From NCBI GenBank assembly GCA_017609285.1, contig JAFCEE010000003.1, positions 75,529 to 139,528 on the forward strand: a stretch of DNA of 64,000 bases, written 5' to 3'. Within the stretch, counting starts at the first letter, position 1; each line of letters begins with the position of its first letter. A program made the position numbers and the translations under genes. The notes under the pieces were generated by a model that did no database searches, was not told the origin of the DNA, and saw only the letters and a program-made list of their open reading frames with translations. Positions 15,582 through 56,367 of the stretch are shown here, piece by piece. The stretch comes from Candidatus Pacearchaeota archaeon (GTDB lineage: Archaea > Nanobdellota > Nanobdellia > Pacearchaeales > GW2011-AR1).

Positions 15582-15687
15582 GGCTCCGTAGCTCAGCCTG
15601 GTTAGAGCACCGGCCTTTTAAACTGAACTATAACAGGAGATAAACAAAGAAAGCCGGGTGTCGAGGGTTCAAATCCCTCCGGGGCCA
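15582..15687 (+). tRNA. tRNA-Lys(UUU) with a 31-nt intron at the canonical 37/38 position
   Basis: Acceptor GGCUCCG/CGGGGCC; D arm GCUC-AGCCUGGUUA-GAGC; anticodon stem CCGGC/GCCGG with loop CU-UUU-A then intron 15621-15651 then A; variable GUGUC; T arm GAGGG-UUCAAAU-CCCUC; discriminator A. No CCA is encoded. An AT-rich TATA-like element lies ~25 nt upstream. Confidence 0.85.
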
Positions 15688-35247: not shown

Positions 35248-35812
35248 TTTCTAATATTTCTCTAACTTGCTTAACTATGTCTTGTTTATTACCATTATTA
35301 TAGATGATATATTTTTTAACCCTAGTTCCTGTCTTTCTAAAGTTTTCAAAAATTAAATTAAACTTATCAAAAGTTATATTTTTAATCGAGTCAATATTAT
35401 TTTTATACTCTTTACTTATTTTTTTGCTCTTTTTTATTCTGTTTAGTAAAATTTTTGTATCTGTATCTATTAGTATAAAAATAAATTTAATATCTTTTGA
35501 AACCATATTTTTTATCATATTTGGGGTTATTGCTTCTTCATAATTTTTAGAAAAATCTCTTCTAATGCCATGTAGAATGTCCTCCCCCATATCTTCTGAA
35601 GGGACAGCATAATGTAAGTCTAAAACAATCTTGTGGAATTTATATGCTTCGTTTTTAATAAATTTTCCGGTTTCAAGTTCGGTTTCAGGCCAAGGTTTAT
35701 TAATTTTATTTATTATATTATAAAGTTTATATTTCTTTATGCTTTTGATATTTCTTAATATTAAACTCTTTCCTACACCCCTAACTCCCCCCAAAAAGAT
35801 TATTGTGCTCAT
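35240..35812 (-). CDS. P-loop NTPase / small-molecule kinase-like protein
   Basis: MSTIIFLGGVRGVGKSLILRNI (Walker A at the extreme N-terminus); 190 aa, the size of a nucleoside- or sugar-kinase-like fold. Overlaps its neighbours by 8 and 4 nt. Confidence 0.55.
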   Translation of the reverse strand: MSTIIFLGGVRGVGKSLILRNIKSIKKYKLYNIINKINKPWPETELETGKFIKNEAYKFHKIVLDLHYAVPSEDMGEDILHGIRRDFSKNYEEAITPNMIKNMVSKDIKFIFILIDTDTKILLNRIKKSKKISKEYKNNIDSIKNITFDKFNLIFENFRKTGTRVKKYIIYNNGNKQDIVKQVREILENV

Positions 35813-36591
35813 TTTTGTTTTATTGATTTATAACCTAAGAAGAAGAATAAATACCAAATGCTAAGATATATCCCTACAATTAATCCTTTCCTTCTGGTTC
35901 CTTCAATCAAGTATTTTAAAAATCCTCTCAAAAAATTAGGGTTTTTTTCTTTTTTTTGGAATAGGTGTTTTTGTTTTCTACCAGAACCATAGTTAAATGC
36001 ACTCCTCAGATCATCTTTAATATTTAGAGGTGCATGGATAATTTTTGCATTGGGGAGATACCCCCACGAAATCTTCTCCCTTTCAATTCTATCAGCCATT
36101 TCTGCATCGGCTGCATGGTCTATTTCTGTATTGAACAACCCTATTTTTTCAAAAACTTTTTTTTTGAAGATAACTCCAGGGATATATAGATTTGGGAAAT
36201 CAGAAGTTGTAAACTCTCTTGCTTTAGCTATTATTTTAGAAATTAATGAGTCAAAAGAAAAGATGACTTTTCCTTTTACTATATCATATTTTTTTGTTTT
36301 TTTATATAATTTAAACAAAGTATGTTTTTCAAAGATGCAATCTGCGTCCATAAAAAAAATAAGATTATACGAAGAATTCCTTATCCCTAAATTATAGAAT
36401 CTCGAAAAAGAAAATTTTTTCATTTTAAGAATTTTTATTTTTCTTTTTTTTAATTCACTTTCTATTTTCTTATCATATTCCCCATTTAAAACAACTATAA
36501 TTTCTAAGTTAGCATCTATAGAATCTATACAATCGAGTACCCTAAAGTCATCACAAACGGGAATTATTACACTTATAGGGAGTCTGACCAT
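35809..36591 (-). CDS. family 2 glycosyltransferase
   Basis: ISVIIPVCDD...IVVLNG...LIFFMDADCIFE (DxD-type) and a C-terminal hydrophobic helix. Confidence 0.75.
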   Translation of the reverse strand: MVRLPISVIIPVCDDFRVLDCIDSIDANLEIIVVLNGEYDKKIESELKKRKIKILKMKKFSFSRFYNLGIRNSSYNLIFFMDADCIFEKHTLFKLYKKTKKYDIVKGKVIFSFDSLISKIIAKAREFTTSDFPNLYIPGVIFKKKVFEKIGLFNTEIDHAADAEMADRIEREKISWGYLPNAKIIHAPLNIKDDLRSAFNYGSGRKQKHLFQKKEKNPNFLRGFLKYLIEGTRRKGLIVGIYLSIWYLFFFLGYKSIKQK

Positions 36592-37190
36592 TTTTTTATT
36601 TTAAATGCTTCGGCATAATTGGTATTACCCCCCATGATTCCTCTAAAAGAGTTTAAAGACTTAACTGCTTTGTCATACCTTCTATGATTTAGTTGAGACT
36701 TATAGATCCTCAACAAATCTATTTTCTTATTTATAAAATTTGAAATGTCTTCGTAATAATTTACTCCGTACATCGGGGTATGAACTTCATATAATAAGAT
36801 ACCGAGAGGATTTAATTTTCCCTTTGAGTTAATTTTAGACATCCAAATTGCTTCTCTAGCTATCTCATAAGTTTTTTTATGGTCCCTATCTCCATCATTT
36901 TCATGGGGAAGGAAGATTATTGAGGGGTTGATCTCTCTTATTATTTTTTTTAATTTGTTTAAATTTTCAGAATTAAACTCTAAAGGTTCTTTTAGTTTAA
37001 GAAAAAAAATTTCCTTGATTCCTGCTTTAATTCTTACTTTTTCGGCTTCCTTTTCTCTAACAGAATCTCCTAAATAAGTCATGAAAACAACATAGACCTC
37101 ATTCCCTTTTTCTATATTCTTCAATAAAGTTCCTCCACAACCGATTATCTCATCATCCGGATGGGGAGCAATAACTAATATTTTTCTCAT
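36573..37190 (-). CDS. PIG-L/LmbE-family N-acetylglucosaminyl deacetylase
   Basis: ILVIAPHPDDEIIGCGGTLLK and HENDGDRDHKKT (zinc-ligand motifs). Confidence 0.8.
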   Translation of the reverse strand: MRKILVIAPHPDDEIIGCGGTLLKNIEKGNEVYVVFMTYLGDSVREKEAEKVRIKAGIKEIFFLKLKEPLEFNSENLNKLKKIIREINPSIIFLPHENDGDRDHKKTYEIAREAIWMSKINSKGKLNPLGILLYEVHTPMYGVNYYEDISNFINKKIDLLRIYKSQLNHRRYDKAVKSLNSFRGIMGGNTNYAEAFKIKKWSDSL

Positions 37191-37258: not shown

Positions 37259-38014
37259 TTAAAAAATTGTATTTCGTAAATGTTCTCTTAGCCTTATCAA
37301 AAATTTTCCAGTAATTCTCTTAACAGACTTTTCTAGAATCTTCTCGTTTAGATTCATATTAGCTAAAATCTCTCTTGACATTCTTTTAGTTTTTCCTTCT
37401 TCAACTAAAGAATAAATTATTGCATTTTTGATTTTTCCATTTTTACATAATATTCTTTTTAGTACGTTATCTACCATATTTAGTTTTTTTTTCTTTGTAA
37501 GTTTAATAATCCATGAATTTACTTTTGGTGGAGGCATAAAACTTTTTTTCTTGACTTCACAAATATAATTTATATTAAAAAATAAATTTGCGATTATCCC
37601 GATTTTTCCTTCTCTCTTCTCTAGAATATTCTTAAATTTCTCTCCTGCAATAACTACAATTTCTTCAATGTTATCTCTTATTGCTTTTAGAACTAAATCC
37701 CCTGAAATAAAATAAGGAATATTTGAAACAATTTTATTATACCCTCGCCAGTCGCTTTTTAAAGCATCCGAGTACATAATTTTTAAATTGTTATATTTTT
37801 TGGATATCCTGTCTAAATCTTTTTTAAATTTTTTATCTATCTCAAAAGCTAAGACTGTTTTAGCTTTTTTAGTTAACTCTTGTGTGAGAATTCCTTTTCC
37901 TGCCCCAATTTCTATTATTTTATCTTTATTAGATATTTCTGCTTCTTTAATTTCTCTTTCAATTATTTTTTTATCTATTAAAAAGTGCTGGCCCTTATTA
38001 AAATCTATATCCAT
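37259..38014 (-). CDS. ksgA: 16S rRNA dimethyladenosine transferase (KsgA/Dim1), host-like composition
   Basis: GQHFLIDKKIIEREI...IIEIGAGKGILTQEL...VLAFEIDKKF...IVSNIPYFISGDLV. Lys-rich and AT-rich like the core genes. Confidence 0.8.
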   Translation of the reverse strand: MDIDFNKGQHFLIDKKIIEREIKEAEISNKDKIIEIGAGKGILTQELTKKAKTVLAFEIDKKFKKDLDRISKKYNNLKIMYSDALKSDWRGYNKIVSNIPYFISGDLVLKAIRDNIEEIVVIAGEKFKNILEKREGKIGIIANLFFNINYICEVKKKSFMPPPKVNSWIIKLTKKKKLNMVDNVLKRILCKNGKIKNAIIYSLVEEGKTKRMSREILANMNLNEKILEKSVKRITGKFLIRLREHLRNTIF

Positions 38015-44668: not shown

Positions 44669-47533
44669 CTAAACTTCTAAACTTACAATTTTGCTTATGC
44701 CTTCTTGCATGCTTATCCCATACAAAACTGTAGATTCAGTAATAATTGCATCATTGTGAGTTATAATGATATACTGACCTGTTTTCATATATTTTTTGAT
44801 TAGTGCTGCTAATCTTTCTGAATTTCTTTTATCTAAGGCAGCATCTACTTCATCAAAGATGTAAAAGCAGTATGGCTTATATTCTTGTATAGCAAATATG
44901 AGAGATAAAGCCACGAGAGTCTGTTCTCCTCCGCTTAAAGAAGTAACATCAAAATATTTCCCTTTTCCTATTTTAATAACTATATCCAAACCTCCAGAAA
45001 ATATGTCTTCTTTATTTTCCAGTTCAAGAAAAACCTGTCCTTTTGTTGAAAGTTGTATGAAGTTTCTGTTAAATAATTCATTGATTGCTTTTAATGTCCT
45101 AAGAAAAGTTCTTTTCTTTTTTTTGTCAATTTCTTCAATAATTTTCAGGATTTCCTGTTTTTCTTTTTCCAAAACAGAAGCTTTATCAGCTATAACATCA
45201 TATTGTTTTTTTATTGAGTCGTAAACTTCTAGAGCTTTTAGATTCACATTTCCAATATTGTCAAGAGCTGTCTGAGTTTTATTAAGCCTTTCTTCTAAAA
45301 TATATGGTGGCAGGTTGAATATTTTAATATTTTTGTAAGGTTCAAAATCTATCCCTAAATTCTCTTGTTCTGCCTTCAATCTTGCTATTTCTATTTTTAG
45401 ATTATTTATTTTTTCATCAATAAGAGATATTCTATTTTGGCTCTCTAATAAAGAAGAGTTATTTTTATGAATCTCTTTTTCGAATAACCTTCTTTTTTCA
45501 ATTAATTTCTGGAATTTGGCTTCTAGTCTTCTGTTCTCTTCTTCTTTTTCAGATAATTGTTGTTGTTTCTCTGTTATTTCTCCATTTATTTCTTCTATTT
45601 CCTGTTTTAAATCCTGTTCTTGCCTATTTAACTGTTTTAAAGTAAGTTTGAAATTTTCAAAATTTTTTTCTTTAAATTGTAACTCTGTGTTTATGTTCTC
45701 TTTAGTTCTTGAAGAAATTTCTTGTATATCTAAAATAATTGTATCATATCTTTCTTCTACATCGTTGTATTGTAGAATTTTTTTCTGTAAAGTTCCTTTC
45801 TCTTTTTCTAAAAGTTTTATTTCTTTTTGTAAGTCTTCTTGTTCTTCAGAAAGGGTTTTTATCTGTTGTTTTTTATCTTCTATGTTCTCTAATTTTATAA
45901 GGTCTGTTTCTGCTTTTAGTATGTTAGATTGCAAGGAAGTAAGTTGTGATTTTGTCTGTTGGATTTCTTTTTCTATTTGTTTTAATGATTTCTGTTTTGT
46001 TTGTATTTTCTGTTCAAAGTCAGATATTTTTTCATTTGACTCTCTGAAAACCTGCTTAATGTGTTCTTTAGTAATTTTACTCTTGCAAAGAGGACAGATA
46101 TCTAGTTTGCTTACTTGGGTTTTTATTTTTTCTAAATTAGAGATTTCTGTTTTATAAGAGAAAATTAGGTTTTCTTCTTGTTTTGCTTGTTTCTGTAATT
46201 TCTCAAAGTCAGTTTCTGCTTCTTCTTTTTGTTTCTTTAATTTTTGGATTTCTTCTTTACAGTTTTCTTTTTGAAAAAAAGAAAGATGTTGGGAAATTTT
46301 GTCTGATTCTTTAATTAAGAAAAAGATGTTATTTTTATTTTTTTGTAATTGTTGTTGTTTGTCTTTTAATTTTTCTTTTACAGTATTGAGTTTTTCTTTT
46401 ATAGTATAATAGGTTTCCCGCTCTTTTTCTATTTGCTCTAACTGCTCTTTTTTTTCTTCAAGTTCTTTCTGTTTCTTTGCTTGTGTCGGAAACTCTTTTC
46501 TTAATTTTTCTATATCCTGTTTTAGAGTTTCTAGATTTGATTTAATTTTATCTTTTCTGGATAAAAGTTCCTCCAGCCTATTTTCATTATTCTCTTTTCT
46601 TACATCTAAACCTGCAAGTTCTGCTCTTAAATCTGAAATTTCCCTGTTAAGTTCATCCTGCTCTTTGCCAGATGATGTTTGTATTTGAGAGTTTATTTTT
46701 TCTATCTCTCCTTCTAACTCATGTATTTTTTTTGTAATTCTTGCTTCATTCCCTTTTTCATCTTCCTTTTTTTTCTCTTTATCTTCTAATTGTTTTGTAA
46801 AATTTGAAAGCTCTTTTTCTTTTTCTTTTAATCTCCTCTTTATTATACTTGCTTTATATCTCTCTATATCTTCCTTTAATTTTTTATATTTTAGAGCTTG
46901 TTTTCTTTCTTCTTCCAAATTTCGTAAATATGTAGCTCTCTCCCTTAATGTTACTCCTACTTGTTTTAATTTCTCTTCTGTTTTTTCCAATTCTCTTAAA
47001 CTTTTTTCTTTCCTTACTTCATATACAGAAATACCAGCAACTTCTTCTATAACTTTTCTTCTTTCTTCCCCAGACATTCTTATTATATTGTTTATTTCTC
47101 CTTGGAGGACTATATTAAAACCATAAGGATCTATTCCTGCTTGTCCTAAAAGCTCGAGAACTTCTTGTCTTGTTTTAGTTTTATTATTTATTTTGTATAT
47201 GCTTTGTCCACTACTCCTTACTATTCTCTCTATTATTATTTCTTTCTCCTCCAAAGAAAATTTTTTATCTGTGTTGTCTAGAATTAATTTAACAGATGCT
47301 TCCATCGCGGGCCTATGTTGTTTAGTTCCTGCAAAAATTAAGTTTGCTGATTTTGCTGCTCTTAAACTTTTTATGCTCATTCTTCCTAAAACAAAGCAAA
47401 TTGCATCTGTGATATTGGACTTGCCAGAACCATTAGGCCCGACTATCACATTCATACTATTTACAAAAGAAATTTCTGTTTCTTTTGGAAAACTTTTGAA
47501 ACCTTTTAACACCAATTTTTTTATATAAACCAT
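44669..47533 (-). CDS. SMC-family ATPase with a central CxxC hook-like motif and no recognisable hinge domain
   Basis: N-terminus MVYIKKLVLKGFKSFPKETEISF...VGPNGSGKSNITDAICFVLG (SMC-type Walker A). C-terminus LSGGEQTLVALSLIFAIQEYKPYCFYIFDEVDAALD (signature + Walker B). About 700 aa of K/E-rich coiled coil lies between them, with LDICPLCKSK at the midpoint (codons at 46086-46097). Confidence 0.8.
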   Translation of the reverse strand: MVYIKKLVLKGFKSFPKETEISFVNSMNVIVGPNGSGKSNITDAICFVLGRMSIKSLRAAKSANLIFAGTKQHRPAMEASVKLILDNTDKKFSLEEKEIIIERIVRSSGQSIYKINNKTKTRQEVLELLGQAGIDPYGFNIVLQGEINNIIRMSGEERRKVIEEVAGISVYEVRKEKSLRELEKTEEKLKQVGVTLRERATYLRNLEEERKQALKYKKLKEDIERYKASIIKRRLKEKEKELSNFTKQLEDKEKKKEDEKGNEARITKKIHELEGEIEKINSQIQTSSGKEQDELNREISDLRAELAGLDVRKENNENRLEELLSRKDKIKSNLETLKQDIEKLRKEFPTQAKKQKELEEKKEQLEQIEKERETYYTIKEKLNTVKEKLKDKQQQLQKNKNNIFFLIKESDKISQHLSFFQKENCKEEIQKLKKQKEEAETDFEKLQKQAKQEENLIFSYKTEISNLEKIKTQVSKLDICPLCKSKITKEHIKQVFRESNEKISDFEQKIQTKQKSLKQIEKEIQQTKSQLTSLQSNILKAETDLIKLENIEDKKQQIKTLSEEQEDLQKEIKLLEKEKGTLQKKILQYNDVEERYDTIILDIQEISSRTKENINTELQFKEKNFENFKLTLKQLNRQEQDLKQEIEEINGEITEKQQQLSEKEEENRRLEAKFQKLIEKRRLFEKEIHKNNSSLLESQNRISLIDEKINNLKIEIARLKAEQENLGIDFEPYKNIKIFNLPPYILEERLNKTQTALDNIGNVNLKALEVYDSIKKQYDVIADKASVLEKEKQEILKIIEEIDKKKKRTFLRTLKAINELFNRNFIQLSTKGQVFLELENKEDIFSGGLDIVIKIGKGKYFDVTSLSGGEQTLVALSLIFAIQEYKPYCFYIFDEVDAALDKRNSERLAALIKKYMKTGQYIIITHNDAIITESTVLYGISMQEGISKIVSLEV

Positions 47534-47602
47534 GAAGACAATAAAGGAAGAGTATATTTAAAGTTTTATTTTAAGTTTTTGAAAAAAGGACAAACCGAAA
47601 GA

Positions 47603-47610
47603 TTTATAAA
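47603..47610 (+). promoter_or_regulatory. TATA-like box upstream of the structured RNA
   Basis: TTTATAAA lies 23-30 nt upstream of the first paired nucleotide of the RNA (47633). Confidence 0.4.
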
Positions 47611-47632
47611 CACTAAAAACCTTTAAAAATTA

Positions 47633-47758
47633 ATGATGGAGCTGGTGGAGTAATCAAGTTTGGATCTTCGGATTTAAACTTGGCTTCGGACATCAGCAGG
47701 CGGAAGAAACAAGTGGAGTCTTCGGACAATACTTGTCTTCGGTCGCCTTTTCCATCAT
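47633..47758 (+). ncRNA. unclassified ~126-nt structured RNA (three-way junction, four cUUCGg motifs)
   Basis: Closing helix ATGATGGA (47633-40) / TCCATCAT (47751-58). Arm 1: GCTGGTG (47641-47) / CATCAGC (47691-97) encloses an 11-bp hairpin AAGTTTGGATC-TTCG-GATTTAAACTT (47656-81, two G-U pairs). Arm 2: GGCG..AAGA (47699-707) / TCTT..CGCC (47736-47) encloses ACAAGT-GGA-GTC-TTCG-GAC-AAT-ACTTGT (47709-36). The G-U pairs and UUCG loops only work on the + strand. A T5 run follows at 47774-78. Confidence 0.6.
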
Positions 47759-47901
47759 ATGTGTTTCTCTAGATTTTTAGGATTTTGTTAAGTTAATAAT
47801 ATTAGAATTTAATAAACTATGAAATAGTTCTAATATCCTCGACATTTATATCCTGGGGCTAAATGGTTATTTAGAATAGGAGCATTTTTTTTCTTTTTTT
47901 T

Positions 47902-48336
47902 TTGGCTATATTTTTATCTGTTTTTCTTGGTTTTGTGGCCTTGTCTCTTATGGGCGGTACAGGAATCTTGATATTAATAATTTTCATAATAATATTTACA
48001 ATTGTTGCGTCTGAGATATATGCTAGACTAGCTTATAAAAACTGGAAGTATGAATTTACTCCTACTAATCTAAAAATAGAAAGAGGTATTATATGGAAAA
48101 GATACTCTAACATTCCTTATGAGAGAGTTCAGAACGTTGATATTTATAGAGGTATTTTAGCTCGAATTTTAAGATTTTCTAGTGTAATGATTCAAACTGC
48201 GGGCTATTCGGTAGGTTATGGAAGACATGGAAGAGTAAGGCCAGAAGGTTATCTTCCTGCTGTAGGTATGGAGGAAGCTGAAAAAATTAGAAATTTTTTA
48301 ATAAAAAAGATTGTAAAATCGAAAGGTGGGCTCTAA
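47902..48336 (+). CDS. membrane protein with bacterial PH-like (YdbS/DUF304-type) domain
   Basis: Two N-terminal TM helices, then YEFTPTNLKIERGIIWKRYSNIPYERVQNVDIYRGILARILRFSSVMIQTAG. TTG start in the ORF track. Confidence 0.6.
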   Translation: MAIFLSVFLGFVALSLMGGTGILILIIFIIIFTIVASEIYARLAYKNWKYEFTPTNLKIERGIIWKRYSNIPYERVQNVDIYRGILARILRFSSVMIQTAGYSVGYGRHGRVRPEGYLPAVGMEEAEKIRNFLIKKIVKSKGGL

Positions 48337-48337
48337 T

Positions 48338-49009
48338 TTAAAAACTAGATAATTTTTTCTGTTTTTTTTCTCCATTAACTTTTCTCCACGTAACCCAGGT
48401 TTCTCTGAAAATGCCGTCTTTTTTAAATTTTGAAGAATGGTTTTTGAGGAATTCCTTTGTTCTAGGATCTGAAGGATAACCAGAACCGAAATCTAATCCC
48501 AATTTTCTTTTTATTTTCCCTACTTCTTTTTCGCGAGTTGACTTAGCAAGGATAGATGCAGCTGCAACTGCGATATGATTAGAGTCTGCTTTATGTTCGC
48601 AATAAAGTTCAAGATTTTCAGTGTTAGTGATATGACTCATTAGAATAGCACGCCATTTTCTTGCATTAGGGGAAGGACAGTCTACTATTACTATTATCTT
48701 ATCCAGACCTTTATTCATCTTATTTATTATCTCTCCTGCTTTAATTGCTTCTATTCTATTTAGATTTATTCCTGCGTTAGTTTTTCCGTCTATTTCTTTT
48801 GGCGAGATAATTGAAATATGGTAAGAGAAAGCTTTTTTTCTTATTATTTCAGCTAGAATTTCTCTTCTTCTTGGAGTTAATTTTTTACTGTCTTTAACTC
48901 CTAACTGTCTTAATTCTTTTTCAAGTTCAGAGTCGATTAAAACTCCAACTAGAATCATTGGACCTATTACAGGGCCTCTTCCACTGTCATCTATTCCTAA
49001 AATCAGCAT
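48338..49009 (-). CDS. rnhB: ribonuclease HII
   Basis: MLILGIDDSGRGPVIGPMILVGV...VDCPSPN...EHKADSNHIAVAAASILAK...GSGYPSD. Confidence 0.9.
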   Translation of the reverse strand: MLILGIDDSGRGPVIGPMILVGVLIDSELEKELRQLGVKDSKKLTPRRREILAEIIRKKAFSYHISIISPKEIDGKTNAGINLNRIEAIKAGEIINKMNKGLDKIIVIVDCPSPNARKWRAILMSHITNTENLELYCEHKADSNHIAVAAASILAKSTREKEVGKIKRKLGLDFGSGYPSDPRTKEFLKNHSSKFKKDGIFRETWVTWRKVNGEKKQKKLSSF

Positions 49010-49801: not shown

Positions 49802-50071
49802 ATGGCAGAAAAGTTAAATGCTGTAAAATTTGGTTTGGCAGGAGGTGTTGTAACAGCAATATGTGTAGCTTTAACTACTATAATGGGTATATTCGGATTT
49901 TTCCCTGAGTATACTGCTTTGTCTTTTGAGTGGCTTGAGAGTATCTATGGATTTTTAGGTTATTCTGGAGCTAACTGGTTATCAGTTATATTGGGAGCAT
50001 TATACAGTTTTGTAGACGGATTTATATTTGTGTGGATATTTGCTTTGATTTATAATAAACTTGTTAGCTAA
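49802..50071 (+). CDS. small membrane protein
   Basis: 89 aa with three hydrophobic segments. GGAGTG SD-like sequence upstream. Confidence 0.5.
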   Translation: MAEKLNAVKFGLAGGVVTAICVALTTIMGIFGFFPEYTALSFEWLESIYGFLGYSGANWLSVILGALYSFVDGFIFVWIFALIYNKLVS

Positions 50072-50072
50072 G

Positions 50073-50450
50073 ATGAGGGTAAAAGAAATTATGAAGAGAG
50101 CAATAGTTATAGAGCAGGATGTAAAAGTTAGAGAGGCAGCTGGAATAATGTCTGAAAAAAGGATAGGAAGTTTGATAGTTTTAAAAGGGAAAAAAATTGT
50201 TGGAATAATTACAGAAAGAGATATAATGAGAAATGTCAATAAGTTAAATAGAAAGGTCTCTGACATAATGTCAAAAAATGTTATAACTATAGATAAAGAA
50301 GATAGTATAGATGATGCTGCCTCTTTAATGGCAAATCATAAAATTAAAAAACTTCCTGTTTTAGAAAATAGGAGATTGGTCGGAATTATAACAGCAACAG
50401 ATTTGATTGCAAATTCTGATGAGTTAAATGAAGAGTTTTTTTTTGATTAA
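50073..50450 (+). CDS. CBS-domain pair protein
   Basis: Two CBS repeats (VKEIMKRAIVIEQD...IGSLIVLKGKKIVGIITERDI; VSDIMSKNVITIDKE...KIKKLPVLENRRLVGIITATDL). The ORF track starts at TTG 50061. Confidence 0.8.
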   Translation: MRVKEIMKRAIVIEQDVKVREAAGIMSEKRIGSLIVLKGKKIVGIITERDIMRNVNKLNRKVSDIMSKNVITIDKEDSIDDAASLMANHKIKKLPVLENRRLVGIITATDLIANSDELNEEFFFD

Positions 50451-50451
50451 G

Positions 50452-51006
50452 CTATAATACAATAATTTTATTCTTTGTTTCCTTAGCTTTGTATAAAGCT
50501 TTATCAGCTCTTTTTTTAAAACTTGTTTCGCTGTCTCTTTTCTTATATTCTGTTAAGCCGGCAGAAATAGTAATATGAAAAGATTTTAATTTTTCTTCAA
50601 CAGATTTTCTTATTCTTTCTGCCACCTTTTTTGCTTTAATTGATGTGGTATTTGGTAACAAAACTATAAACTCTTCTCCTCCGAACCTTGCCACTATATC
50701 GGATTTTCTTACACAACTTTCAATTATTTTCGCTATTTTTATCAAGAATTTATCAGCTTTTATGTGGCCAAATTTTGTATTTATTTGTTTAAAATTATCT
50801 ACATCAAATATAGCTAAACTTAAATTTTCACCTCGTTTAGCTTTTTCAAATTCTATATTTAGGATTTCTTGAAAAAATTTATAATTATATAATCCTGTTT
50901 TTTCATCTTTTGTTGCTATCTCATATAAAGCATTTATATTTTTGTCAATATTTTCAATAAGTGATTTTAAATTTTCTCTTAAATGTTTTAAATTTTTAAC
51001 TTCCAT
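50452..51006 (-). CDS. GGDEF-domain diguanylate cyclase (stand-alone, short coiled-coil N-terminus)
   Basis: KDEKTGLYNYKFFQEIL...SLAIFDVDNFKQINTKFGH..ADKFL...RKSDIVARFGGEEFIVLLPNT...ITISAGL...ADKALYKAK. GGEEF active site, with RxxD exactly 5 residues upstream. Confidence 0.85.
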   Translation of the reverse strand: MEVKNLKHLRENLKSLIENIDKNINALYEIATKDEKTGLYNYKFFQEILNIEFEKAKRGENLSLAIFDVDNFKQINTKFGHIKADKFLIKIAKIIESCVRKSDIVARFGGEEFIVLLPNTTSIKAKKVAERIRKSVEEKLKSFHITISAGLTEYKKRDSETSFKKRADKALYKAKETKNKIIVL

Positions 51007-51008
51007 GT

Positions 51009-51800
51009 TTACTGCTTCTTTACATCGCTTGTTCTTTTATACCTTACGTTGAGATGATTTAATAATTTTATTGTTTCTTGTCTTTCTCTACTCTTTAAAC
51101 CTTTCCAGTCCATCAAAGCAAGAGGGTCTTGTTCTTCTGTCTTATTAACTGCCTCTTTCAACATTTCTTCTGTAATTGGAAAAGCATATTGTGGAATAAT
51201 GTGTCCTAAAGCATATTCGCTATTTAACTGAATTTTGTTAAAATTAGGACAGTAGTGAGGTCCTCCTATCCCTATTGCCACTTTCCATTTTCCTAATTTT
51301 TCCCTATTAAAAGTTTCAATTGATTTTTTTATTGTTTCTGCTATTACCTTACCTGCTTGTTTATCTTGCCATTCTTCCTCGCTACTACCTATTTCAATAA
51401 AACAGCAAGGCTTTTCTATATAAGGGCCATGATGAGTTACTTCAAGAGTAACTTCATATCCAGAATTTTTTGCTTGCTCGTTGAGAGTTTGAAATAAGTG
51501 CTTGAGAAAAAAAGCTGATGTTCCGCAAACTTGCCCTTCCCTACCACCAAGCTCAGCTTTTTTCCAGTTGCCAGGTGCATGTATGCTTAAAGTTTTTCTC
51601 TGTTGTTGAGAGGCATGTTTACTTGCAAAGATTACAAAGTCTGCTTCTATCTGCTCTTTTTCTATTTCTTCATCTATATTCTCTGCATAAATTATTTCTT
51701 TTTCTGTTAAGTATATTGGCAAGCTGTTTAATTTTTCCAACTCCCCTACTATGTTCATTCCTGCTTTATCTTTTTTACTTGCTATTATTGCTGGTTTCAT
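51009..51800 (-). CDS. dtdA: D-aminoacyl-tRNA deacylase, archaeal DTD2 type
   Basis: MKPAIIASKKDKAGMNI...FASKHASQQQRKTLSIHAPGNW....GG...VTLEVTHHGP...GGPHY. Confidence 0.75.
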   Translation of the reverse strand: MKPAIIASKKDKAGMNIVGELEKLNSLPIYLTEKEIIYAENIDEEIEKEQIEADFVIFASKHASQQQRKTLSIHAPGNWKKAELGGREGQVCGTSAFFLKHLFQTLNEQAKNSGYEVTLEVTHHGPYIEKPCCFIEIGSSEEEWQDKQAGKVIAETIKKSIETFNREKLGKWKVAIGIGGPHYCPNFNKIQLNSEYALGHIIPQYAFPITEEMLKEAVNKTEEQDPLALMDWKGLKSRERQETIKLLNHLNVRYKRTSDVKKQ

Positions 51801-52444: not shown

Positions 52445-53164
52445 ATGTTTTATTTAATTGGTTTGGGTTTGAGTTTAGAGAGCATAAGTAAAGAAGCTCT
52501 TGATGTTTGTAAGAAAGCTGATAAAATTTATTTAGAAAATTATACTGTGGAATTTCCTTATAAACCTGAAAAATTAGAAGAAGTTGTGGGGAAGAGAGTA
52601 TTCCCTTTAACAAGAATTATGGTGGAAGATGAGAAATTTTTAGAAGAGGCAAAGAAAAAAAATATTGTTTTATTAGTTTATGGCTCCCCTCTTATTGCAA
52701 CTACTCATGTATCTTTAATTTTAAAATGTTTAAATGAGGACATAAATTATAAAATTTTGCATAATTCCTCTATTTTAGATGCTATAACTGAAACAGGTTT
52801 ACAGATTTATAAATTTGGCAAGATAGCAAGTATGCCAAAATTTGATGAAAATTATAAGCCAAAAAGTTTTGTAAATATTATAAAACAAAACAAAAAAATT
52901 TCTGCACATACATTAATCTTAGTTGATATTGGTTTGACTTTTCCAAATGCTTTAAAACAACTTATAGATGTATGTAAAAGAAAAGTCAAAATTGATAAAT
53001 TGATAGTGTGTAGTCAATTAGGGACTAATGAAAGTAGAATTTATTATGCCAATCCTGATTCATTATATGGGGCTGAGATATATCATCCTTTTTGTTTTAT
53101 TATTCCTTCTGATTTACATTTTCTTGAAGAAGAATTTTTAGAGAGAGTTAAAGAAAAAATTTAA
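52445..53164 (+). CDS. dph5: diphthine synthase (Dph5)
   Basis: MFYLIGLGLSLESISKEALDVCKKADKIYLENYT...VLLVYGSPLIATTH...(tetrapyrrole-methylase fold). The diphthamide target loop is present in aEF-2 in this window. Confidence 0.85.
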   Translation: MFYLIGLGLSLESISKEALDVCKKADKIYLENYTVEFPYKPEKLEEVVGKRVFPLTRIMVEDEKFLEEAKKKNIVLLVYGSPLIATTHVSLILKCLNEDINYKILHNSSILDAITETGLQIYKFGKIASMPKFDENYKPKSFVNIIKQNKKISAHTLILVDIGLTFPNALKQLIDVCKRKVKIDKLIVCSQLGTNESRIYYANPDSLYGAEIYHPFCFIIPSDLHFLEEEFLERVKEKI

Positions 53165-53264
53165 AAACTTTTTATTTTTAAATTAAGCATGGCTAAAGAT
53201 AACAGTTTTTATTTTAGAACTTCTTCAATCTTAGCCATAGCTTCTATTATAATTATTATTTAGA

Positions 53265-53516
53265 TTGCAGTCTCGTTTTTCTGGGGCTGCAAAAGTTAAG
53301 ATGTCAGTTGAAAATATAGAACAGCTCGTGAATTCCAATAAAAAATTCGAAGAAGTGTTGAATGAGTTTAATGAGCTAGTAATACAGGGAAGGTTTTCAA
53401 AAAAAGAAAGAGAAAAAGCTTGGGCTTATTTTAGACAACTACCTGAAAAAATACAAAGGGATGTTCAAAAAAATTCGAGAAGCTGGTATAATACCTTACG
53501 ATTTTATAGTATGTAA
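53265..53516 (+). CDS. hypothetical protein
   Basis: 83-aa ORF (TTG start in the track; ATG at 53301 is an alternative). No family recognised. Confidence 0.35.
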   Translation: MQSRFSGAAKVKMSVENIEQLVNSNKKFEEVLNEFNELVIQGRFSKKEREKAWAYFRQLPEKIQRDVQKNSRSWYNTLRFYSM

Positions 53517-53550
53517 ATAAATTTATAAATCAAAATTGATTAAAAAGAAA

Positions 53551-56367
53551 ATGTATAATTTTAAAGAAGTAGAAAAAGAAATTTTAAAATTCTGGAAGGA
53601 AAAGAAGATTTACGATAAAGTTAAATCTAAAAATAAAAAAGGGAAAAAATTCTATTTGATGGACGGACCTCCATATGCTACAGGGAATATACATATGGGA
53701 ACTGCCTTAAATAAGGTTTTAAAGGACATAGCAATGAGAAGCCAAAGATTGCAAGGAAAAGATGTTTTTGATAGAGCAGGTTATGATACCCATGGTTTGC
53801 CTATAGAATATCAAGTTGAAAAAGAATTGGGGTTTAAAACAAAAAAAGACATAGAAAAGCATGGTGTTAAGAAATTTATCAAGAAATGTAAAGATTTTGC
53901 TACAAGATATATAAATGTGATGAATTCTGAATTTGAAAATCTTGGTGTGTGGATGGACTTTGAAAATTCTTATTTAACTTTAAATCCAGGGTATGTCGAA
54001 ATAATATGGGACGTTTTCAAGCAGGCTAATAAGAAGAATTTACTTTATTTAGGGAAATATCCTATTCATATTTGCCCAAGATGTGAAACAGCTGTTTCTT
54101 ATAACGAGATTGAGTATGCAAGAATAGAAGATACGAGCATTTATGTAAAATTTAAATTAAGAGACAGGCAAGTTTATCTTTTAATTTGGACAACTACACC
54201 ATGGACATTACCAGGAAATACAGGGGTTATGGTAAATCCTGATTTTGATTATGCTGAAGTAGAAGTAGATTTTAGAGATGGAAAAAAAGAAGTTTGGATT
54301 ATGGCTAAAGAGTTAGTAGAAAAAATAATGTCTCAATTCGGTTATAAATATCAAATCAAGAAAATATACAAAGGGGAAAAGATGGAGGGTTGGAGATATC
54401 ATAATCCTTTAATTGAGCATTTAAAATTAAACTTAGATAAAGAAAAAAATTATAGGGTTGTTTTAAGTAGGAGATATGTTAATTTAGAAGAGGGAACAGG
54501 GTTAGTTCATTCTGCTCCAGGACACGGAAGGGAAGATTATGAAGTTGGGAAAGAGTATAGTTTAGATATGCCTTCTCCAGTAGCATTAAATGGATTAATG
54601 ACAGAAGAAGCTGGGAAATATGCGGGGAAAAAAGCAAGAGTTGTAGACAAAGAAATTATAAAAGATTTGGATGAAGAGGGGATGTTAGCAAGAATAGAGC
54701 CTTATGTCCATGATTATCCTCTATGTTGGAGATGTAAAGAGCCATTATTAATGATTTCGCAGCCACAATGGTTTTTGAAAATTTCAAGTATACAAAAAAA
54801 ACTATTGGAAGAAAACGAGAAAACTAAGTGGATTCCTTCTTGGATGGAGTTGAGAATGAAAGCCTGGCTAGAAGGCTTAGGTGATTGGCCTGTTTCGAGG
54901 AAAAGATACTGGGGCACTCCTCTTCCTATTTGGACTTGTGAAAAATGTGAGAAAAAAATAGTTATTGGTAGTATAAATGAGTTAGAGAAATTATCTAGTA
55001 GGAGTATTAGGGAAGTTCACAAACCTGAAATTGATTCTGTAACTATTAAATGTAAATGTGGTGGTTTAATGAAAAGAGTAGAAGACGTATTAGATGTTTG
55101 GTTTGATTCTGGTGTAAGTAGTTGGGCTGCTTTAAATTATTTTAAAGATAAGAAATTGTTCAAAAAATTTTGGCCTGCTGATTTGAATGTAGAGGGGAAA
55201 GACCAAATAAGAGGATGGTGGAATTCTCAGCTTATACTTTCAGAAATAAAATTTGAAAAAAAACCTTTTGAAAATATAATGGTTCATGGTTTAGTTCTAG
55301 ATTTAGGTAAGAGAAAAATGTCAAAGAGTTTGGGAAATATTATAACTCCCAAAGAGATTATAGAAAAATTTGGAAGAGATTATATAAGATATTATTTTGC
55401 AAAAGTGTCAAAGGGAGAAGATTTTGCTTTTGACGAGAAAGAATTTTTATCCATTAAAGAATTTTTTAGGGTTTTAGTTAATGTTAATAATTTTATTAAT
55501 CAGTTAGAAAATAAAAAATCTAAGATAAGAGTAGAGGACACTTGGATATTAAGCAAGTTTAATTCGCTTGTTAAAAAAGTTGAAGAGAGTTATAATAAAT
55601 TTAGATTTCCTGAAGTTATTCTTGCTTTAGAAAATTTTTTAATTTTTGATTTGAGTAAGAGCTATATTCAAATGATAAGAGAAAGGCAAAACGAGGTTTG
55701 TAATATTTTAGATAGTATAAGATTAGGATTATTAAAATTATTAGCTCCTATCTGTCCTTTTGTAACAGAAAAAATATGGCAAGACTTAAGGAAGCAAGGA
55801 ATAGTTAAGGAAGAATCAATTCATTTATCCTCGTGGCCAAAATATGATAATAAAAAAATTAATAAAAATTTAGAAGAGAAATTTGAATTAGCAAAAAGAA
55901 TAATAGAGGCAGGTTTAAGAGAGAGGGATAAAGCTAAAATAGGATTGAAGTGGCCTTTAAGCAAGGCTATAGTTATAACTGAGAAAAAATTGAGTGGGAG
56001 TTTAAAAGAAATCTTGAAGAGGCAGTTGAATGTTAAAGAAATTGAAGTGAAGAAAGGAAAATTAAATGTTAAATTAGATACTAAATTAACAAGAGAGTTA
56101 GAAGCTGAAGGTTATGCTAGGGTTTTGACTAGAAAAATACAGGAGGAAAGAAAGAAAGTAGGATTAGTGAAAAAAGAGAAAATTGATTTAATAATTATCG
56201 TCGGAGAAAATTTATTAGAAATGTTAAGAGAACAAAAAGAGTTTATTAAAGAAAGAGTAAATGCTGAGAAAGTTTTATTGCTATCTGAGAGTAAGGAAAA
56301 ATTTAAATACTCTTCTGAATTTAAAATTAAAGAAAAAAAAGTGGGTGTTACCTTTAAGAAAGCATAA
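53551..56367 (+). CDS. ileS: isoleucyl-tRNA synthetase
   Basis: FYLMDGPPYATGNIHMGTALNKVLKD, GYDTHGLPIE, TTPWTLPGN, KMSKSLGN, and zinc-type CPRC/CWRC/CEKC pairs. The ORF track starts at TTG 53536. Confidence 0.9.
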   Translation: MYNFKEVEKEILKFWKEKKIYDKVKSKNKKGKKFYLMDGPPYATGNIHMGTALNKVLKDIAMRSQRLQGKDVFDRAGYDTHGLPIEYQVEKELGFKTKKDIEKHGVKKFIKKCKDFATRYINVMNSEFENLGVWMDFENSYLTLNPGYVEIIWDVFKQANKKNLLYLGKYPIHICPRCETAVSYNEIEYARIEDTSIYVKFKLRDRQVYLLIWTTTPWTLPGNTGVMVNPDFDYAEVEVDFRDGKKEVWIMAKELVEKIMSQFGYKYQIKKIYKGEKMEGWRYHNPLIEHLKLNLDKEKNYRVVLSRRYVNLEEGTGLVHSAPGHGREDYEVGKEYSLDMPSPVALNGLMTEEAGKYAGKKARVVDKEIIKDLDEEGMLARIEPYVHDYPLCWRCKEPLLMISQPQWFLKISSIQKKLLEENEKTKWIPSWMELRMKAWLEGLGDWPVSRKRYWGTPLPIWTCEKCEKKIVIGSINELEKLSSRSIREVHKPEIDSVTIKCKCGGLMKRVEDVLDVWFDSGVSSWAALNYFKDKKLFKKFWPADLNVEGKDQIRGWWNSQLILSEIKFEKKPFENIMVHGLVLDLGKRKMSKSLGNIITPKEIIEKFGRDYIRYYFAKVSKGEDFAFDEKEFLSIKEFFRVLVNVNNFINQLENKKSKIRVEDTWILSKFNSLVKKVEESYNKFRFPEVILALENFLIFDLSKSYIQMIRERQNEVCNILDSIRLGLLKLLAPICPFVTEKIWQDLRKQGIVKEESIHLSSWPKYDNKKINKNLEEKFELAKRIIEAGLRERDKAKIGLKWPLSKAIVITEKKLSGSLKEILKRQLNVKEIEVKKGKLNVKLDTKLTRELEAEGYARVLTRKIQEERKKVGLVKKEKIDLIIIVGENLLEMLREQKEFIKERVNAEKVLLLSESKEKFKYSSEFKIKEKKVGVTFKKA

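What the first reader, a model, noticed from the sequence alone, without database searches (positions are those of the whole stretch)
50452..51006. Apparently active GGDEF diguanylate cyclase in an archaeal genome
The 184-aa protein is a short coiled coil plus a complete GGDEF domain. It has the catalytic GGEEF, the upstream D.DNFK metal/substrate segment, and an RxxD inhibitory site (RKSD) exactly five residues before GGEEF, the same spacing as in PleD-type enzymes. c-di-GMP signalling is generally regarded as a bacterial trait that is essentially absent from archaea. No EAL, HD-GYP or PilZ partner is visible in this window. The enzyme may reflect transfer from a bacterium, possibly interference with a host or neighbour, or synthesis of another cyclic dinucleotide.
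Basis: partly seen in the sequence, partly recalled or inferred. Interest (0 to 1): 0.6.

Follow-up and report, generated by a model that had tools for sequence, protein, structure and literature searches.

The report
Conserved diguanylate cyclase in DPANN archaea
A tiny symbiotic-type archaeon (Pacearchaeota) carries a minimal but almost fully intact enzyme for making cyclic di-GMP, a signal considered bacterial, and the gene is an old, conserved resident of that archaeal lineage, not contamination, which makes c-di-GMP signalling in archaea directly testable.

Summary
The ORF at 50452..51006 (-) encodes a 184-aa protein made of a 30-residue leucine-zipper helix and a full GGDEF domain (Pfam 5e-41; AF2 pLDDT 93.7). 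It has GGEEF, the metal, phosphate and guanine residues, and an RxxD I-site with PleD spacing. The window has no EAL, HD-GYP, PilZ or c-di-GMP riboswitch.

The contig is archaeal throughout (RpoA/B, aEF-2, dph5, archaeal DtdA) and Pacearchaeota-like by EF-2.

The gene is not a one-off transfer. It belongs to a family of about 190-aa proteins. In 77 non-redundant loci from independent assemblies the gene sits in the same archaeal block (ArgRS-TrmB-IleRS-dph5-DtdA→GGDEF…RNase HII-SMC). It is usually co-oriented directly behind dtdA. It diverges at the same rate as its housekeeping neighbours.

All catalytic and I-site residues are invariant in 131 members. Guanine-specific N76 and D85 argue for c-di-GMP and against another dinucleotide.

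One caveat: the trans-acting Arg (PleD R300) is never present. Its loss co-varies perfectly with a Lys in the DxLT turn, so the swap may be compensatory.

Most likely this is a zipper-dimerised, product-inhibited diguanylate cyclase with no sensor domain. Its receptor is unknown. It is a new member of a known enzyme kind, in an unexpected domain of life.

The parts
50452..51006 (-). Gene for the 184-aa stand-alone diguanylate cyclase (leucine zipper + GGDEF domain)
   Evidence: ORF. Pfam PF00990 5e-41. AF2 pLDDT 93.7. Foldseek TM 0.78-0.90 to SiaD, WspR, DgcR, PadC and DgcB.
50911..51000 (-). N-terminal helix, residues 3-32: predicted parallel leucine zipper (a/d = L6 L9 L13 L16 I20 N23 L27 I30), the likely dimerisation device
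   Evidence: DSSP helix 3-32. Heptad register 7 of 8 hydrophobic plus a core Asn. Family-wide, a positions are 100% hydrophobic and b, c, f, g about 0%. PDB phmmer aligns it from residue 4 to the GCN4-WspR fusion 3i5c.
50878..50907 (-). Turn after the zipper, D34-E-K36-T-G-L-Y-N41-Y42-K43: family-specific variant of the canonical DxLTGLxNRR segment (Leu to Lys36; PleD R300 to Tyr42)
   Evidence: PleD mapping. The family has DxKT plus non-Arg in 127 of 131 members. Other GG[DE]EF domains have DLT+R in 196 of 224. All 7 others with Lys lack the Arg.
50779..50805 (-). DVDNFKQIN, residues 68-76: metal-binding D68 (PleD D327), phosphate-binding K73 (K332), guanine-binding N76 (N335). D85 (D344) lies 9 residues further on.
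   Evidence: Invariant in 43 of 43 and 131 of 131. Mapping.
50698..50709 (-). RKSD, residues 100-103: primary inhibitory (I) site RxxD, five residues before GGEEF
   Evidence: R and D are invariant in 131 of 131 family members, against 146 of 224 (65%) of other GG[DE]EF domains. The partner R131 (PleD R390) is present in 128 of 131.
50668..50682 (-). GGEEF, residues 109-113: catalytic hairpin (PleD 368-372), preceded by R107 (PleD R366)
   Evidence: Read directly from the sequence. G109, G110, E111, E112 are invariant.
51009..51800 (-). dtdA (archaeal-type D-aminoacyl-tRNA deacylase, PF04414). Its stop codon is 2 nt before the GGDEF start, so it is the probable operon partner.
   Evidence: Pfam 3e-63. 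DtdA lies directly upstream on the same strand in 50 (+2 miscalled) of 59 evaluable non-redundant family loci, with a median gap of 40 nt.
50061..50450 (+). Stand-alone CBS-pair protein, convergent on the GGDEF gene with one base between the two stop codons. It is a neighbour, and its functional link is unproven.
   Evidence: Pfam CBS 2.4e-29. It is a neighbour in only 7 non-redundant loci, all in the closest subclade. PDB hits are generic archaeal CBS pairs.
52445..56367 (+). dph5 (diphthine synthase) and IleRS: upstream part of the conserved archaeal synteny block that anchors the GGDEF gene
   Evidence: TIGR00522 1.6e-53. The block recurs. 35 of 38 loci of at least 5 kb carry at least 2 block markers.
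44669..49009 (-). SMC and RNase HII: downstream part of the same conserved block

Best explanation
The gene encodes a functional, minimal diguanylate cyclase of a Pacearchaeota-type DPANN archaeon. It is transcribed behind the housekeeping gene dtdA. The 30-residue N-terminal amphipathic helix forms a parallel leucine zipper. The zipper holds two GGDEF domains together and runs straight into the DxKT turn, so it sets their mutual orientation. Each domain binds GTP-Mg2+: D68 and E111 bind metal, K73, K175 and K178 bind phosphates, and N76 and D85 bind guanine. The dimer condenses two GTP into c-di-GMP. The product then binds the RxxD I-site (R100, D103, R131) and shuts the enzyme off, so the cell holds a capped basal c-di-GMP level with no sensory input domain. 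Shown here: the domain, fold, residues, zipper periodicity, archaeal provenance, vertical inheritance and purifying selection. Inferred: dimerisation, catalysis, the product, feedback inhibition and co-transcription. Unknown: the receptor and the degradation route.
For: The domain is full-length by Pfam and TIGRFAM. A confident AF2 model gives a helix plus the GGDEF fold. The best structural matches are active coiled-coil or stalk plus GGDEF enzymes: SiaD, WspR, GCN4-WspR, DgcR, PadC with GTP (TM 0.90, rmsd 1.5) and DgcB coiled-coil+GGDEF. Every PleD catalytic and I-site residue except R300 maps to a column that is invariant in 131 family members: D327, K332, N335, D344, R359, D362, R366, GGEE and K442. 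The I-site is kept in 100% of members against 65% of other GG[DE]EF domains, which only makes sense if c-di-GMP is present. The heptad stripe is conserved family-wide. The gene sits in the same archaeal block in 77 non-redundant loci from independent assemblies. It diverges like its housekeeping neighbours and has native codon usage. Retention of the gene across this lineage, in contigs dense with housekeeping genes, argues for function. Lys36 co-varies perfectly with loss of R300, also in bacterial GGDEF-EAL proteins with intact GGEEF and RxxD. That suggests a compensated active site, not a decayed one.
Against: PleD R300 acts in trans on the alpha-phosphate, and R300A and R300K reduce activity (bioRxiv 10.1101/2025.08.22.671821). 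In this protein the position is Tyr42, and it is never Arg in the family (0 of 131), against 92% Arg elsewhere. PleD R446 is Lys178 here, next to a one-residue deletion; it is Arg in 117 of 131 family members. No EAL, HD-GYP, PilZ or riboswitch was found in the 64-kb window or in the flanks of related loci. A complete signalling circuit is therefore not demonstrated. c-di-GMP has never been detected in any archaeon (PMC10249747). No biochemical evidence exists.
Confidence: 0.7

Rival explanations
1. The protein binds nucleotides but is a poor or inactive cyclase. It would act as a c-di-GMP or GTP sensor through its I-site and A-site, for example sensing c-di-GMP that comes from bacterial neighbours or hosts.
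For: The trans-acting Arg (PleD R300) is lost in the whole family, and R446 is Lys in this protein. R300A and R300K lower PleD activity. The I-site is conserved in 100% of members. No partner PDE or effector was seen in the window.
Against: Known GGDEF-type receptors let the A-site decay (own knowledge of PelD and similar proteins). Here GGEE, both metal ligands, K332/K442 and the guanine pair are invariant in 131 of 131. Lys36 co-varies with the missing Arg, also in bacterial proteins that keep GGEEF. A conserved dimerising zipper is what a cyclase needs, not what an I-site receptor needs.
Confidence: 0.13
2. The enzyme makes a different product: 3'3'-cGAMP, c-di-AMP, or a linear pppGpG-type dinucleotide.
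For: The altered trans residue (Tyr, Asn, Ser or His instead of Arg) sits where the second substrate is contacted, so it could change the chemistry or release an intermediate (inference). No canonical c-di-GMP partners were seen. In some relatives a DAC-domain gene is adjacent.
Against: The guanine-specific pair N76/D85 is invariant. Hypr GGDEF enzymes replace that Asp with Ser (own knowledge of Hallberg et al. 2016, which is cited). The I-site that binds intercalated c-di-GMP is fully kept. The DAC neighbour implies that c-di-AMP already has its own cyclase.
Confidence: 0.07
3. The gene is bacterial DNA: an assembly chimera, a binning artefact, or a very recent horizontal passenger with no role in the archaeon.
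For: Reviews warn that archaeal GGDEF and HD-GYP hits in MAGs may be contamination. Two family members are labelled Flavobacterium and Bacillota in NCBI.
Against: The gene lies 2 nt after archaeal dtdA, between dph5-IleRS and RNase HII-SMC. The same arrangement occurs in dozens of independent assemblies. The 'Bacillota' contig carries the whole archaeal block (ArgRS, TrmB, IleRS, dph5, PF04414 DtdA, RNase HII, SMC). The 7.9-kb 'Flavobacterium' contig shares the TatD-GGDEF-CBS-dUTPase arrangement with family loci on long contigs. GC is 24.7% and GC3 14%, at or below the window mean, and codon usage is typical. None of 80 bacterial GTDB loci carries the family signature.
Confidence: 0.01

Closest known systems
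PleD / WspR / DgcR-type diguanylate cyclases with an RxxD I-site (bacteria)
   Same: Same GGDEF fold (TM 0.78-0.88). Same GGEEF, metal, phosphate and guanine residues. RxxD lies five residues upstream with the R390 partner. A helical stalk precedes the DxLT turn.
   Different: There is no receiver or other sensory domain. The whole input is a 30-residue zipper. The DxLT Leu is Lys, and the trans-acting R300 is replaced (Tyr here). The host is an archaeon.
Coiled-coil + GGDEF units: Caulobacter DgcB CC-GGDEF (6ttr), P. aeruginosa SiaD (7e6g), engineered GCN4-WspR (3i5c)
   Same: The architecture is the same: a parallel coiled coil directly fused to a GGDEF domain. These are full-length structural matches (TMq 0.87 / TMt 0.84 for 6ttr). 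Sequence aligns to 3i5c from residue 4.
   Different: In those bacterial enzymes the coiled coil links to further domains or partners (SiaC; the N-terminal part of DgcB). Here nothing precedes it. The engineered GCN4-WspR fusion is the closest analogue of the natural protein.
Methanocella arvoryzae RCIX2274 (CAJ37382), REC-PAS-PocR-GGDEF-HD-GYP
   Same: It is a GGDEF domain encoded in an archaeal genome. It was long cited as the only accepted case.
   Different: It is a single multi-domain, bacterial-looking ORF in one genome. The present protein is a stand-alone enzyme that belongs to a lineage-wide, syntenic family.
Hypr GGDEF cGAMP synthases (Geobacter GacA, Bdellovibrio Bd0367)
   Same: GGDEF fold with an altered substrate contact. 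They are a precedent for GGDEF enzymes with non-canonical products.
   Different: Hypr enzymes change the guanine-reading Asp (PleD D344). Here that Asp (D85) is invariant, so the Hypr signature is absent.
Bacterial TM-GGDEF-GGDEF-EAL proteins with a DxKT / no-R300 first GGDEF (e.g. P0180)
   Same: They share the Lys-for-Leu and non-Arg combination, together with intact GGEEF and RxxD.
   Different: They are 900-1100-aa membrane proteins with EAL domains in bacterial gene contexts. Per-domain scores to the family profile are at most 161 bits, against at least 214 bits for family members.

Membership tests
GGDEF-domain diguanylate cyclase (PF00990 / TIGR00254) | Full-length match to the GGDEF profile and the GGDEF (palm-like) fold | tested here: met
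   PF00990 gives 140.6 bits against a cut-off of 23.8, covering 2-159 of 161. TIGR00254 gives 139.5 bits against 37.4. AF2 pLDDT is 93.7. Foldseek prob is 1.00 with TM up to 0.90 to solved DGCs.
GGDEF-domain diguanylate cyclase (PF00990 / TIGR00254) | Intact GG[D/E]EF catalytic hairpin | tested here: met
   GGEEF is at residues 109-113. GGEE is invariant in the family.
GGDEF-domain diguanylate cyclase (PF00990 / TIGR00254) | Metal ligands (PleD D327, E370) and phosphate-binding lysines (K332, K442) | tested here: met
   D68, E111 and K73 are invariant in 43 of 43 aligned members. K175 (PleD K442) is Lys in 129 of 131.
GGDEF-domain diguanylate cyclase (PF00990 / TIGR00254) | Guanine-specific pair (PleD N335, D344) | tested here: met
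   N76 and D85 are present in 131 of 131.
GGDEF-domain diguanylate cyclase (PF00990 / TIGR00254) | Gamma-phosphate Arg (PleD R446) | tested here: inconclusive
   It is Lys178 in the window protein, next to a one-residue deletion. In the family it is Arg in 117 of 131 and Lys in 10 of 131. Among other GG[DE]EF domains Lys occurs in 11 of 224.
GGDEF-domain diguanylate cyclase (PF00990 / TIGR00254) | Trans-acting Arg of the DxLTGLxNRR segment (PleD R300). It is highly conserved and important for rate, but it is not part of the classical definition of the family. | tested here: not met
   It is Tyr42 here. The family has 0 of 131 Arg (Asn 50, Ser 26, His 25, Tyr 23, Phe 3). Other GG[DE]EF domains have 205 of 224 Arg. 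The loss co-varies with Lys36. PleD R300A and R300K reduce activity.
GGDEF-domain diguanylate cyclase (PF00990 / TIGR00254) | Means of homodimerisation, since catalysis needs two GGDEF domains | tested here: met
   The evidence is in silico only. A 30-residue helix carries a conserved a/d(/e) hydrophobic stripe and a core Asn/Ser. No multimer model or experiment was possible.
GGDEF-domain diguanylate cyclase (PF00990 / TIGR00254) | Synthesis of c-di-GMP from 2 GTP | not testable with these tools
   This needs an enzyme assay.
I-site (product-inhibited) subclass of DGCs (PleD/WspR type) | RxxD five residues upstream of GG[D/E]EF, plus the second Arg (PleD R390) | tested here: met
   R100-K-S-D103, then five residues, then G109. 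R131 is present. RxxD occurs in 131 of 131 and R390 in 128 of 131 family members.
Complete c-di-GMP signalling module (cyclase + phosphodiesterase + effector) | An EAL or HD-GYP phosphodiesterase in the same genome | tested here: inconclusive
   None was found in the 64-kb window. None was found among recurrent neighbours in 77 loci. The HD protein near the gene in L081 is a plain HD, not HD-GYP. Whole genomes could not be searched.
Complete c-di-GMP signalling module (cyclase + phosphodiesterase + effector) | A PilZ, MshEN or other known receptor, or a GEMM riboswitch | tested here: inconclusive
   The window has no PilZ. No c-di-GMP riboswitch was found in the window or in 110 kb of related loci. 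Whole genomes were not searchable.
Hypr GGDEF (cGAMP synthase) | Replacement of the guanine-reading Asp (PleD D344) by Ser | tested here: not met
   D85 is invariant.
Degenerate GGDEF receptors / GdpP-type or Cas10-palm GGDEF relatives | A decayed A-site, or a better match to PF24898 or PF22335 | tested here: not met
   PF24898 gives 18 bits and PF22335 gives 20.4 bits. Both are below their cut-offs of 30 and 27 and far below the PF00990 score. The A-site is intact. PADLOC gave no hit.

The most novel reading that the evidence does not exclude
Pacearchaeota (DPANN) have inherited vertically, since before the lineage diversified, a one-enzyme c-di-GMP system: a constitutive, zipper-dimerised, product-capped cyclase with a re-wired trans contact (Lys36 instead of R300). 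The system would have none of the bacterial partners (EAL, HD-GYP, PilZ, riboswitch). Either the receptors and the degradation route are of a kind not yet described, or the nucleotide is aimed at the host or partner cell that these ultra-small archaea depend on.
Probability: 0.3. Interest if true: 0.8.

Novelty: new member of a known kind. Interest (0 to 1): 0.55.

Why it matters
Reviews up to 2023 state that diguanylate cyclases are almost exclusively bacterial and that c-di-GMP has never been detected in an archaeon. The census papers explicitly leave open whether GGDEF and HD-GYP hits in archaeal MAGs are contamination. This window and its relatives answer that question for one lineage. The gene is embedded in a conserved archaeal gene block, is co-oriented with dtdA, and is as conserved as the translation and replication genes around it. 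This gives the field a concrete, small (184 aa), easily expressed candidate to test whether archaea make c-di-GMP. It also gives a defined set of small genomes in which to look for non-canonical receptors. In addition it is a natural version of the engineered GCN4-GGDEF fusion, and it shows a natural Lys-for-Arg re-wiring of the trans contact in the active site, which is of interest for the catalytic mechanism of GGDEF enzymes.

Tried and rejected
It gave no taxonomic census of the family. It was reused only as a bacterial control.

(2) Exact look-up of the window protein and of P0001 returned 'not on record', so the source contig (154,199 nt) could not be extended.

(3) The exhaustive representatives search ranks multi-GGDEF proteins by summed score. 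The top-150 list is cut at about 210 bits, so it cannot prove a score gap between the family and single-domain bacterial GGDEFs.

(4) Candidate partners were checked and dropped. The HD protein near the gene in L081 is a plain HD. The CBS neighbour resembles generic archaeal CBS pairs and is adjacent in only 7 loci. The downstream genes are otherwise variable. PADLOC gave no defence-system hit. Rfam found no riboswitch.

(5) Supplementary tables of the HD-GYP census, which list archaeal HD-GYP ORFs, are not held.

(6) A genome-wide search for EAL, HD-GYP, PilZ or MshEN in the same MAGs was not possible with the tools.

(7) dN/dS was not attempted because all relatives with DNA in hand are at most 66% identical and therefore saturated.

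(8) A functional link between DtdA and the cyclase was considered. No mechanistic basis was found. In a subclade TatD replaces DtdA upstream, so the association is best read as operon 'hitch-hiking' within a conserved block.
Full report
OBSERVATION. The ORF 50452..51006 on the minus strand (ATG start, 184 aa) exists as described. Pfam gives GGDEF PF00990 at E=5e-41 over residues 32-179, covering profile positions 2-159 of 161. NCBIfam TIGR00254 gives 8e-41. The equivalog models (SiaD, PleD, DgcA) score below their cut-offs, so it is a GGDEF enzyme but not an orthologue of any named bacterial one. GGEEF is at residues 109-113. D68-V-D70-N-F72-K73 is the 'D.DNFK' segment. R100-K-S-D103 lies exactly five residues before G109. 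Pfam scans of all 69 non-overlapping ORFs of at least 60 aa found no EAL, HD-GYP or PilZ domain in the window. Rfam found only two tRNAs.

PROVENANCE. The window is archaeal on both sides of the gene. It carries unsplit RpoB, RpoA'/A'', archaeal NusA, S12, S7, aEF-2, aEF-1alpha, RpoH, a DnaG-type Toprim protein, SMC, RNase HII, archaeal-type DtdA (PF04414), diphthine synthase, TrmB and aminoacyl-tRNA synthetases. GC is 27-36% throughout. The GGDEF gene has 24.7% GC and 14% GC3, at or below the window mean, and its codon usage is typical for genes of its size, ranking 9 of 21. The nearest named relatives of EF-2 are 'Candidatus Pacearchaeota archaeon' MAGs at 72-74% identity. The organism is therefore a Pacearchaeota-type DPANN archaeon.

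A FAMILY, NOT A ONE-OFF. A word-indexed search of 5.8 billion proteins returned 1410 hits. The best 120 are all stand-alone GGDEF proteins of 165-231 aa at 50-100% identity. Where a name is given it is Nanoarchaeota, Pacearchaeota, Nanoarchaeia or 'archaeon'. Two exceptions are labelled Flavobacterium and Bacillota. The 'Bacillota' contig carries the whole archaeal block: ArgRS, TrmB, IleRS, dph5, PF04414 DtdA, RNase HII and SMC. The 7.9-kb 'Flavobacterium' contig shares the TatD-GGDEF-CBS-dUTPase arrangement with family loci on long contigs. Both are therefore probably misbinned. An exhaustive HMMER search of 1.84 billion cluster representatives put at least 12 further 50%-identity clusters of the same short architecture in the top 150. 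A metagenome scan with the family-specific peptide DEKTGLYN found 391 stretches, 282 of them confirmed, and 80 loci were fetched. Together with eight loci fetched by exact look-up, this gives 77 non-redundant loci. In 35 of the 38 loci of at least 5 kb, at least two markers of the window's own gene block are present in the same order: ArgRS-TrmB-IleRS-dph5-small ORF-DtdA→GGDEF ... RNase HII-SMC. DtdA lies directly upstream on the same strand in 50 of 59 evaluable loci. Two more (L087, L139) were miscalled by my start-codon rule. TatD takes that place in 4. The median DtdA-stop to GGDEF-start gap is 40 nt, and it is 2 nt in the window. Identity to the window protein is 48-66% for GGDEF, compared with 45-55% for DtdA, 47-61% for dph5, 45-51% for SMC and 49-64% for RNase HII. 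The cyclase gene has therefore evolved like its housekeeping neighbours. That is the signature of vertical inheritance under purifying selection, and it excludes chimerism and recent transfer. None of 80 bacterial GTDB loci fetched has the block or the family signature.

ANATOMY AND LIKELY MECHANISM. AlphaFold2 with the family alignment gives pLDDT 93.7. The model has one helix over residues 3-32 followed by the GGDEF alpha/beta fold. Foldseek against the PDB returns only diguanylate cyclases. The best full-length matches are stalk or coiled-coil plus GGDEF structures: SiaD, WspR, GCN4-WspR, DgcR, PadC with GTP (TM 0.90, rmsd 1.5 Å) and the DgcB coiled-coil+GGDEF construct (TMq 0.87 / TMt 0.84). 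The helix is a textbook leucine zipper. In one register the a/d positions are L6 L9 L13 L16 I20 N23 L27 I30. Across the family the a positions are 100% hydrophobic, the d positions are hydrophobic apart from a conserved Ser/Asn at position 23 and Ala/Ile/Leu at position 30, and b, c, f and g are about 0% hydrophobic. I mapped the protein to PleD. The mapping gives D327=D68, K332=K73, N335=N76, D344=D85, R359=R100, D362=D103, R366=R107, GGEEF=109-113, R390=R131, Y439=Y172 and K442=K175. All of these are invariant or nearly so in 131 family domains. The RxxD I-site is present in 131 of 131 family members, against 65% of 224 other GG[DE]EF domains. The most economical reading is a zipper-held homodimer that converts 2 GTP to c-di-GMP and is switched off by its product at the I-site. 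With no sensory domain it would set a capped basal level of the nucleotide, and its expression would be tied to a housekeeping operon. The fold, the residues, the periodicity and the conservation are shown. Dimerisation, catalysis and feedback are inferred from the named bacterial homologues.

DEVIATIONS. Two conserved positions differ. PleD R300 contacts the alpha-phosphate of the substrate in the other subunit, and its R300A and R300K mutants have reduced activity (bioRxiv 10.1101/2025.08.22.671821). In this protein the position is Tyr42, and it is never Arg in the family (Asn 50, Ser 26, His 25, Tyr 23, Phe 3 of 131). It is Arg in 205 of 224 other GG[DE]EF domains. PleD R446, a gamma-phosphate contact, is Lys178 in the window protein next to a one-residue deletion. 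It is Arg in 117 of 131 family members. The first change is coupled to another. The Leu of the canonical DxLT turn is Lys36 in the family (DxKT plus non-Arg in 127 of 131). Among the 224 other domains, 7 have Lys there and all 7 lack R300, while 205 of the 217 without Lys keep R300. Those seven include bacterial TM-GGDEF-GGDEF-EAL proteins with intact GGEEF and RxxD. I read this as a compensatory relocation of the positive charge and not as decay, but only an assay can tell. It is the main reason the confidence is 0.7 and not higher.

PARTNERS AND CONTEXT. Unbiased clustering of 651 flanking ORFs found only housekeeping genes recurring: DtdA in 55 loci, dph5 in 31, an 80-aa membrane ORF in 28, IleRS in 22, RNase HII in 20, dUTPase in 11, MFS in 9 and CBS in 7. 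The region downstream of the gene is variable. The window's convergent CBS-pair gene has its stop codon one base from the GGDEF stop. It is adjacent only in the closest subclade and resembles generic archaeal CBS pairs. No phosphodiesterase, receptor or riboswitch was seen anywhere that could be examined. Whole genomes could not be searched, so the circuit downstream of the cyclase is unknown.

COMPARISON WITH THE LITERATURE. Galperin et al. 2018 knew one archaeal GGDEF, from Methanocella arvoryzae, and suspected contamination for the rest. Braun et al. 2021 noted more than 300 BLAST hits in Asgard and DPANN MAGs without follow-up. Römling 2022 wrote that their presence 'needs to be confirmed in archaeal contigs'. 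Galperin and Chou made the same reservation for HD-GYP. The 2023 review states that c-di-GMP has not been detected in archaea. Searches for GGDEF or c-di-GMP together with DPANN, Pacearchaeota, Woesearchaeota or Asgard, and for 'archaeal diguanylate cyclase', found no dedicated study. The searchable library is incomplete. The enzyme kind is well known, and NCBI already labels relatives 'GGDEF domain-containing protein'. What appears to be new is the following: the proteins form a vertically inherited, syntenic, strongly constrained family of one DPANN lineage, with a zipper-only architecture and a distinctive DxKT/no-R300 active-site variant.

RIVALS. A sensor-only role (0.13) is favoured by the missing R300 but contradicted by the invariant A-site and the zipper. 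Another product (0.07) is contradicted by the invariant N76/D85 pair and the I-site. Contamination or a recent passenger gene (0.01) is excluded by synteny, composition and conservation. Export of the nucleotide towards a host cannot be addressed with sequence data.

VERDICT. The protein is a new member of a known enzyme kind in an unexpected domain of life. It is moderately interesting because it converts a long-standing doubt (is c-di-GMP ever archaeal?) into a simple experiment.

Noticed in passing
window 1025..3028 (+), C-terminal ~210 residues (about nt 2390..3028): A 667-aa membrane protein (N-terminal extracellular region, one TM segment) ends in a domain that Pfam does not recognise but that folds as a class III nucleotidyl cyclase. 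The evidence is weak hits to PDB 3mr7 and 8jsz and to PADLOC PycC, an AF2 model at pLDDT 67, and Foldseek, where all top-50 hits are adenylyl or guanylyl cyclases (E 1.6e-9, TM ~0.6). Only 4 homologues exist among 5.8 billion proteins, and the Asn/Arg transition-state pair is not conserved among them. It may be a pseudo-cyclase. It is a second cyclase-like signalling protein in the same window.
   Followed up: yes
L093 2028..2621, L097 11016..11606, L108 1718..2317, L121 10502..11074 (also fragments in L092 and L102): In several related Pacearchaeota loci a ~196-aa DAC-domain protein lies within about 0.5 kb downstream of the GGDEF gene. It is a putative diadenylate cyclase (PF02457 1.9e-17) with DGA and GTRHSAG motifs and C-terminal TM helices. 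Putative c-di-AMP and c-di-GMP cyclase genes are therefore neighbours there. This is not the case in the window.
   Followed up: partly
L085 (ENA k141_2482894; protein HUW44138.1 'Bacillota bacterium') and L086 (JAQTPQ010000163.1; MDD5151258.1 / WP_300100938.1 'Flavobacterium sp.'): Two family members are filed under bacterial names in NCBI, one with a RefSeq WP_ accession. L085 carries the whole archaeal block (PF04414 DtdA, dph5, IleRS, TrmB, RNase HII, SMC). The short L086 shares only the TatD-GGDEF-CBS-dUTPase arrangement with family loci. These are probably misbinned archaeal contigs.
   Followed up: yes
window 53536..56367 (IleRS) compared with related loci: IleRS identity to the window protein is bimodal among syntenic relatives: 35-42% in 20 loci and 63-72% in 5 loci, with nothing between. 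TrmB, dph5 and DtdA at the same loci are unimodal. This suggests two deeply divergent IleRS types that replace each other at the same chromosomal position. ArgRS shows a similar hint (38-45% versus 59%).
   Followed up: partly
window 19262..22858 (+): RNA polymerase subunits A' and A'' are encoded as one continuous 1198-aa ORF (A' model over residues 8-842, A'' model over 832-1157). In most archaea they are two genes. RpoB is also unsplit (1085 aa).
   Followed up: no
window 15582..15687 (+): Rfam finds a tRNA (59.4 bits) spanning 106 nt that ARAGORN misses. It may be an intron-containing archaeal tRNA.
   Followed up: no
window 10621..11061 (+) and 11115..13142 (+): An NrdR-like protein (NrdR zinc ribbon + ATP-cone) lies directly upstream of the anaerobic ribonucleotide reductase NrdD. 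NrdR is regarded mainly as a bacterial regulator (own knowledge).
   Followed up: no
window 50450..50454: The CBS-pair gene (+) and the GGDEF gene (-) converge with a single base between their stop codons. Their transcripts must therefore overlap or terminate within each other. A 2026 preprint notes that bacterial CBS-tetrad-GGDEF fusion proteins exist, so a regulatory link is conceivable but untested.
   Followed up: partly
window 26841..27746 (-) and 37259..38014 (-): There are two separate KsgA/RrnaAD-type rRNA adenine dimethylase paralogues in one 64-kb stretch of a reduced genome. The second sits next to a glycosyltransferase, PIG-L, QueC-like and methyltransferase cluster (33393..37190).
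   Followed up: no
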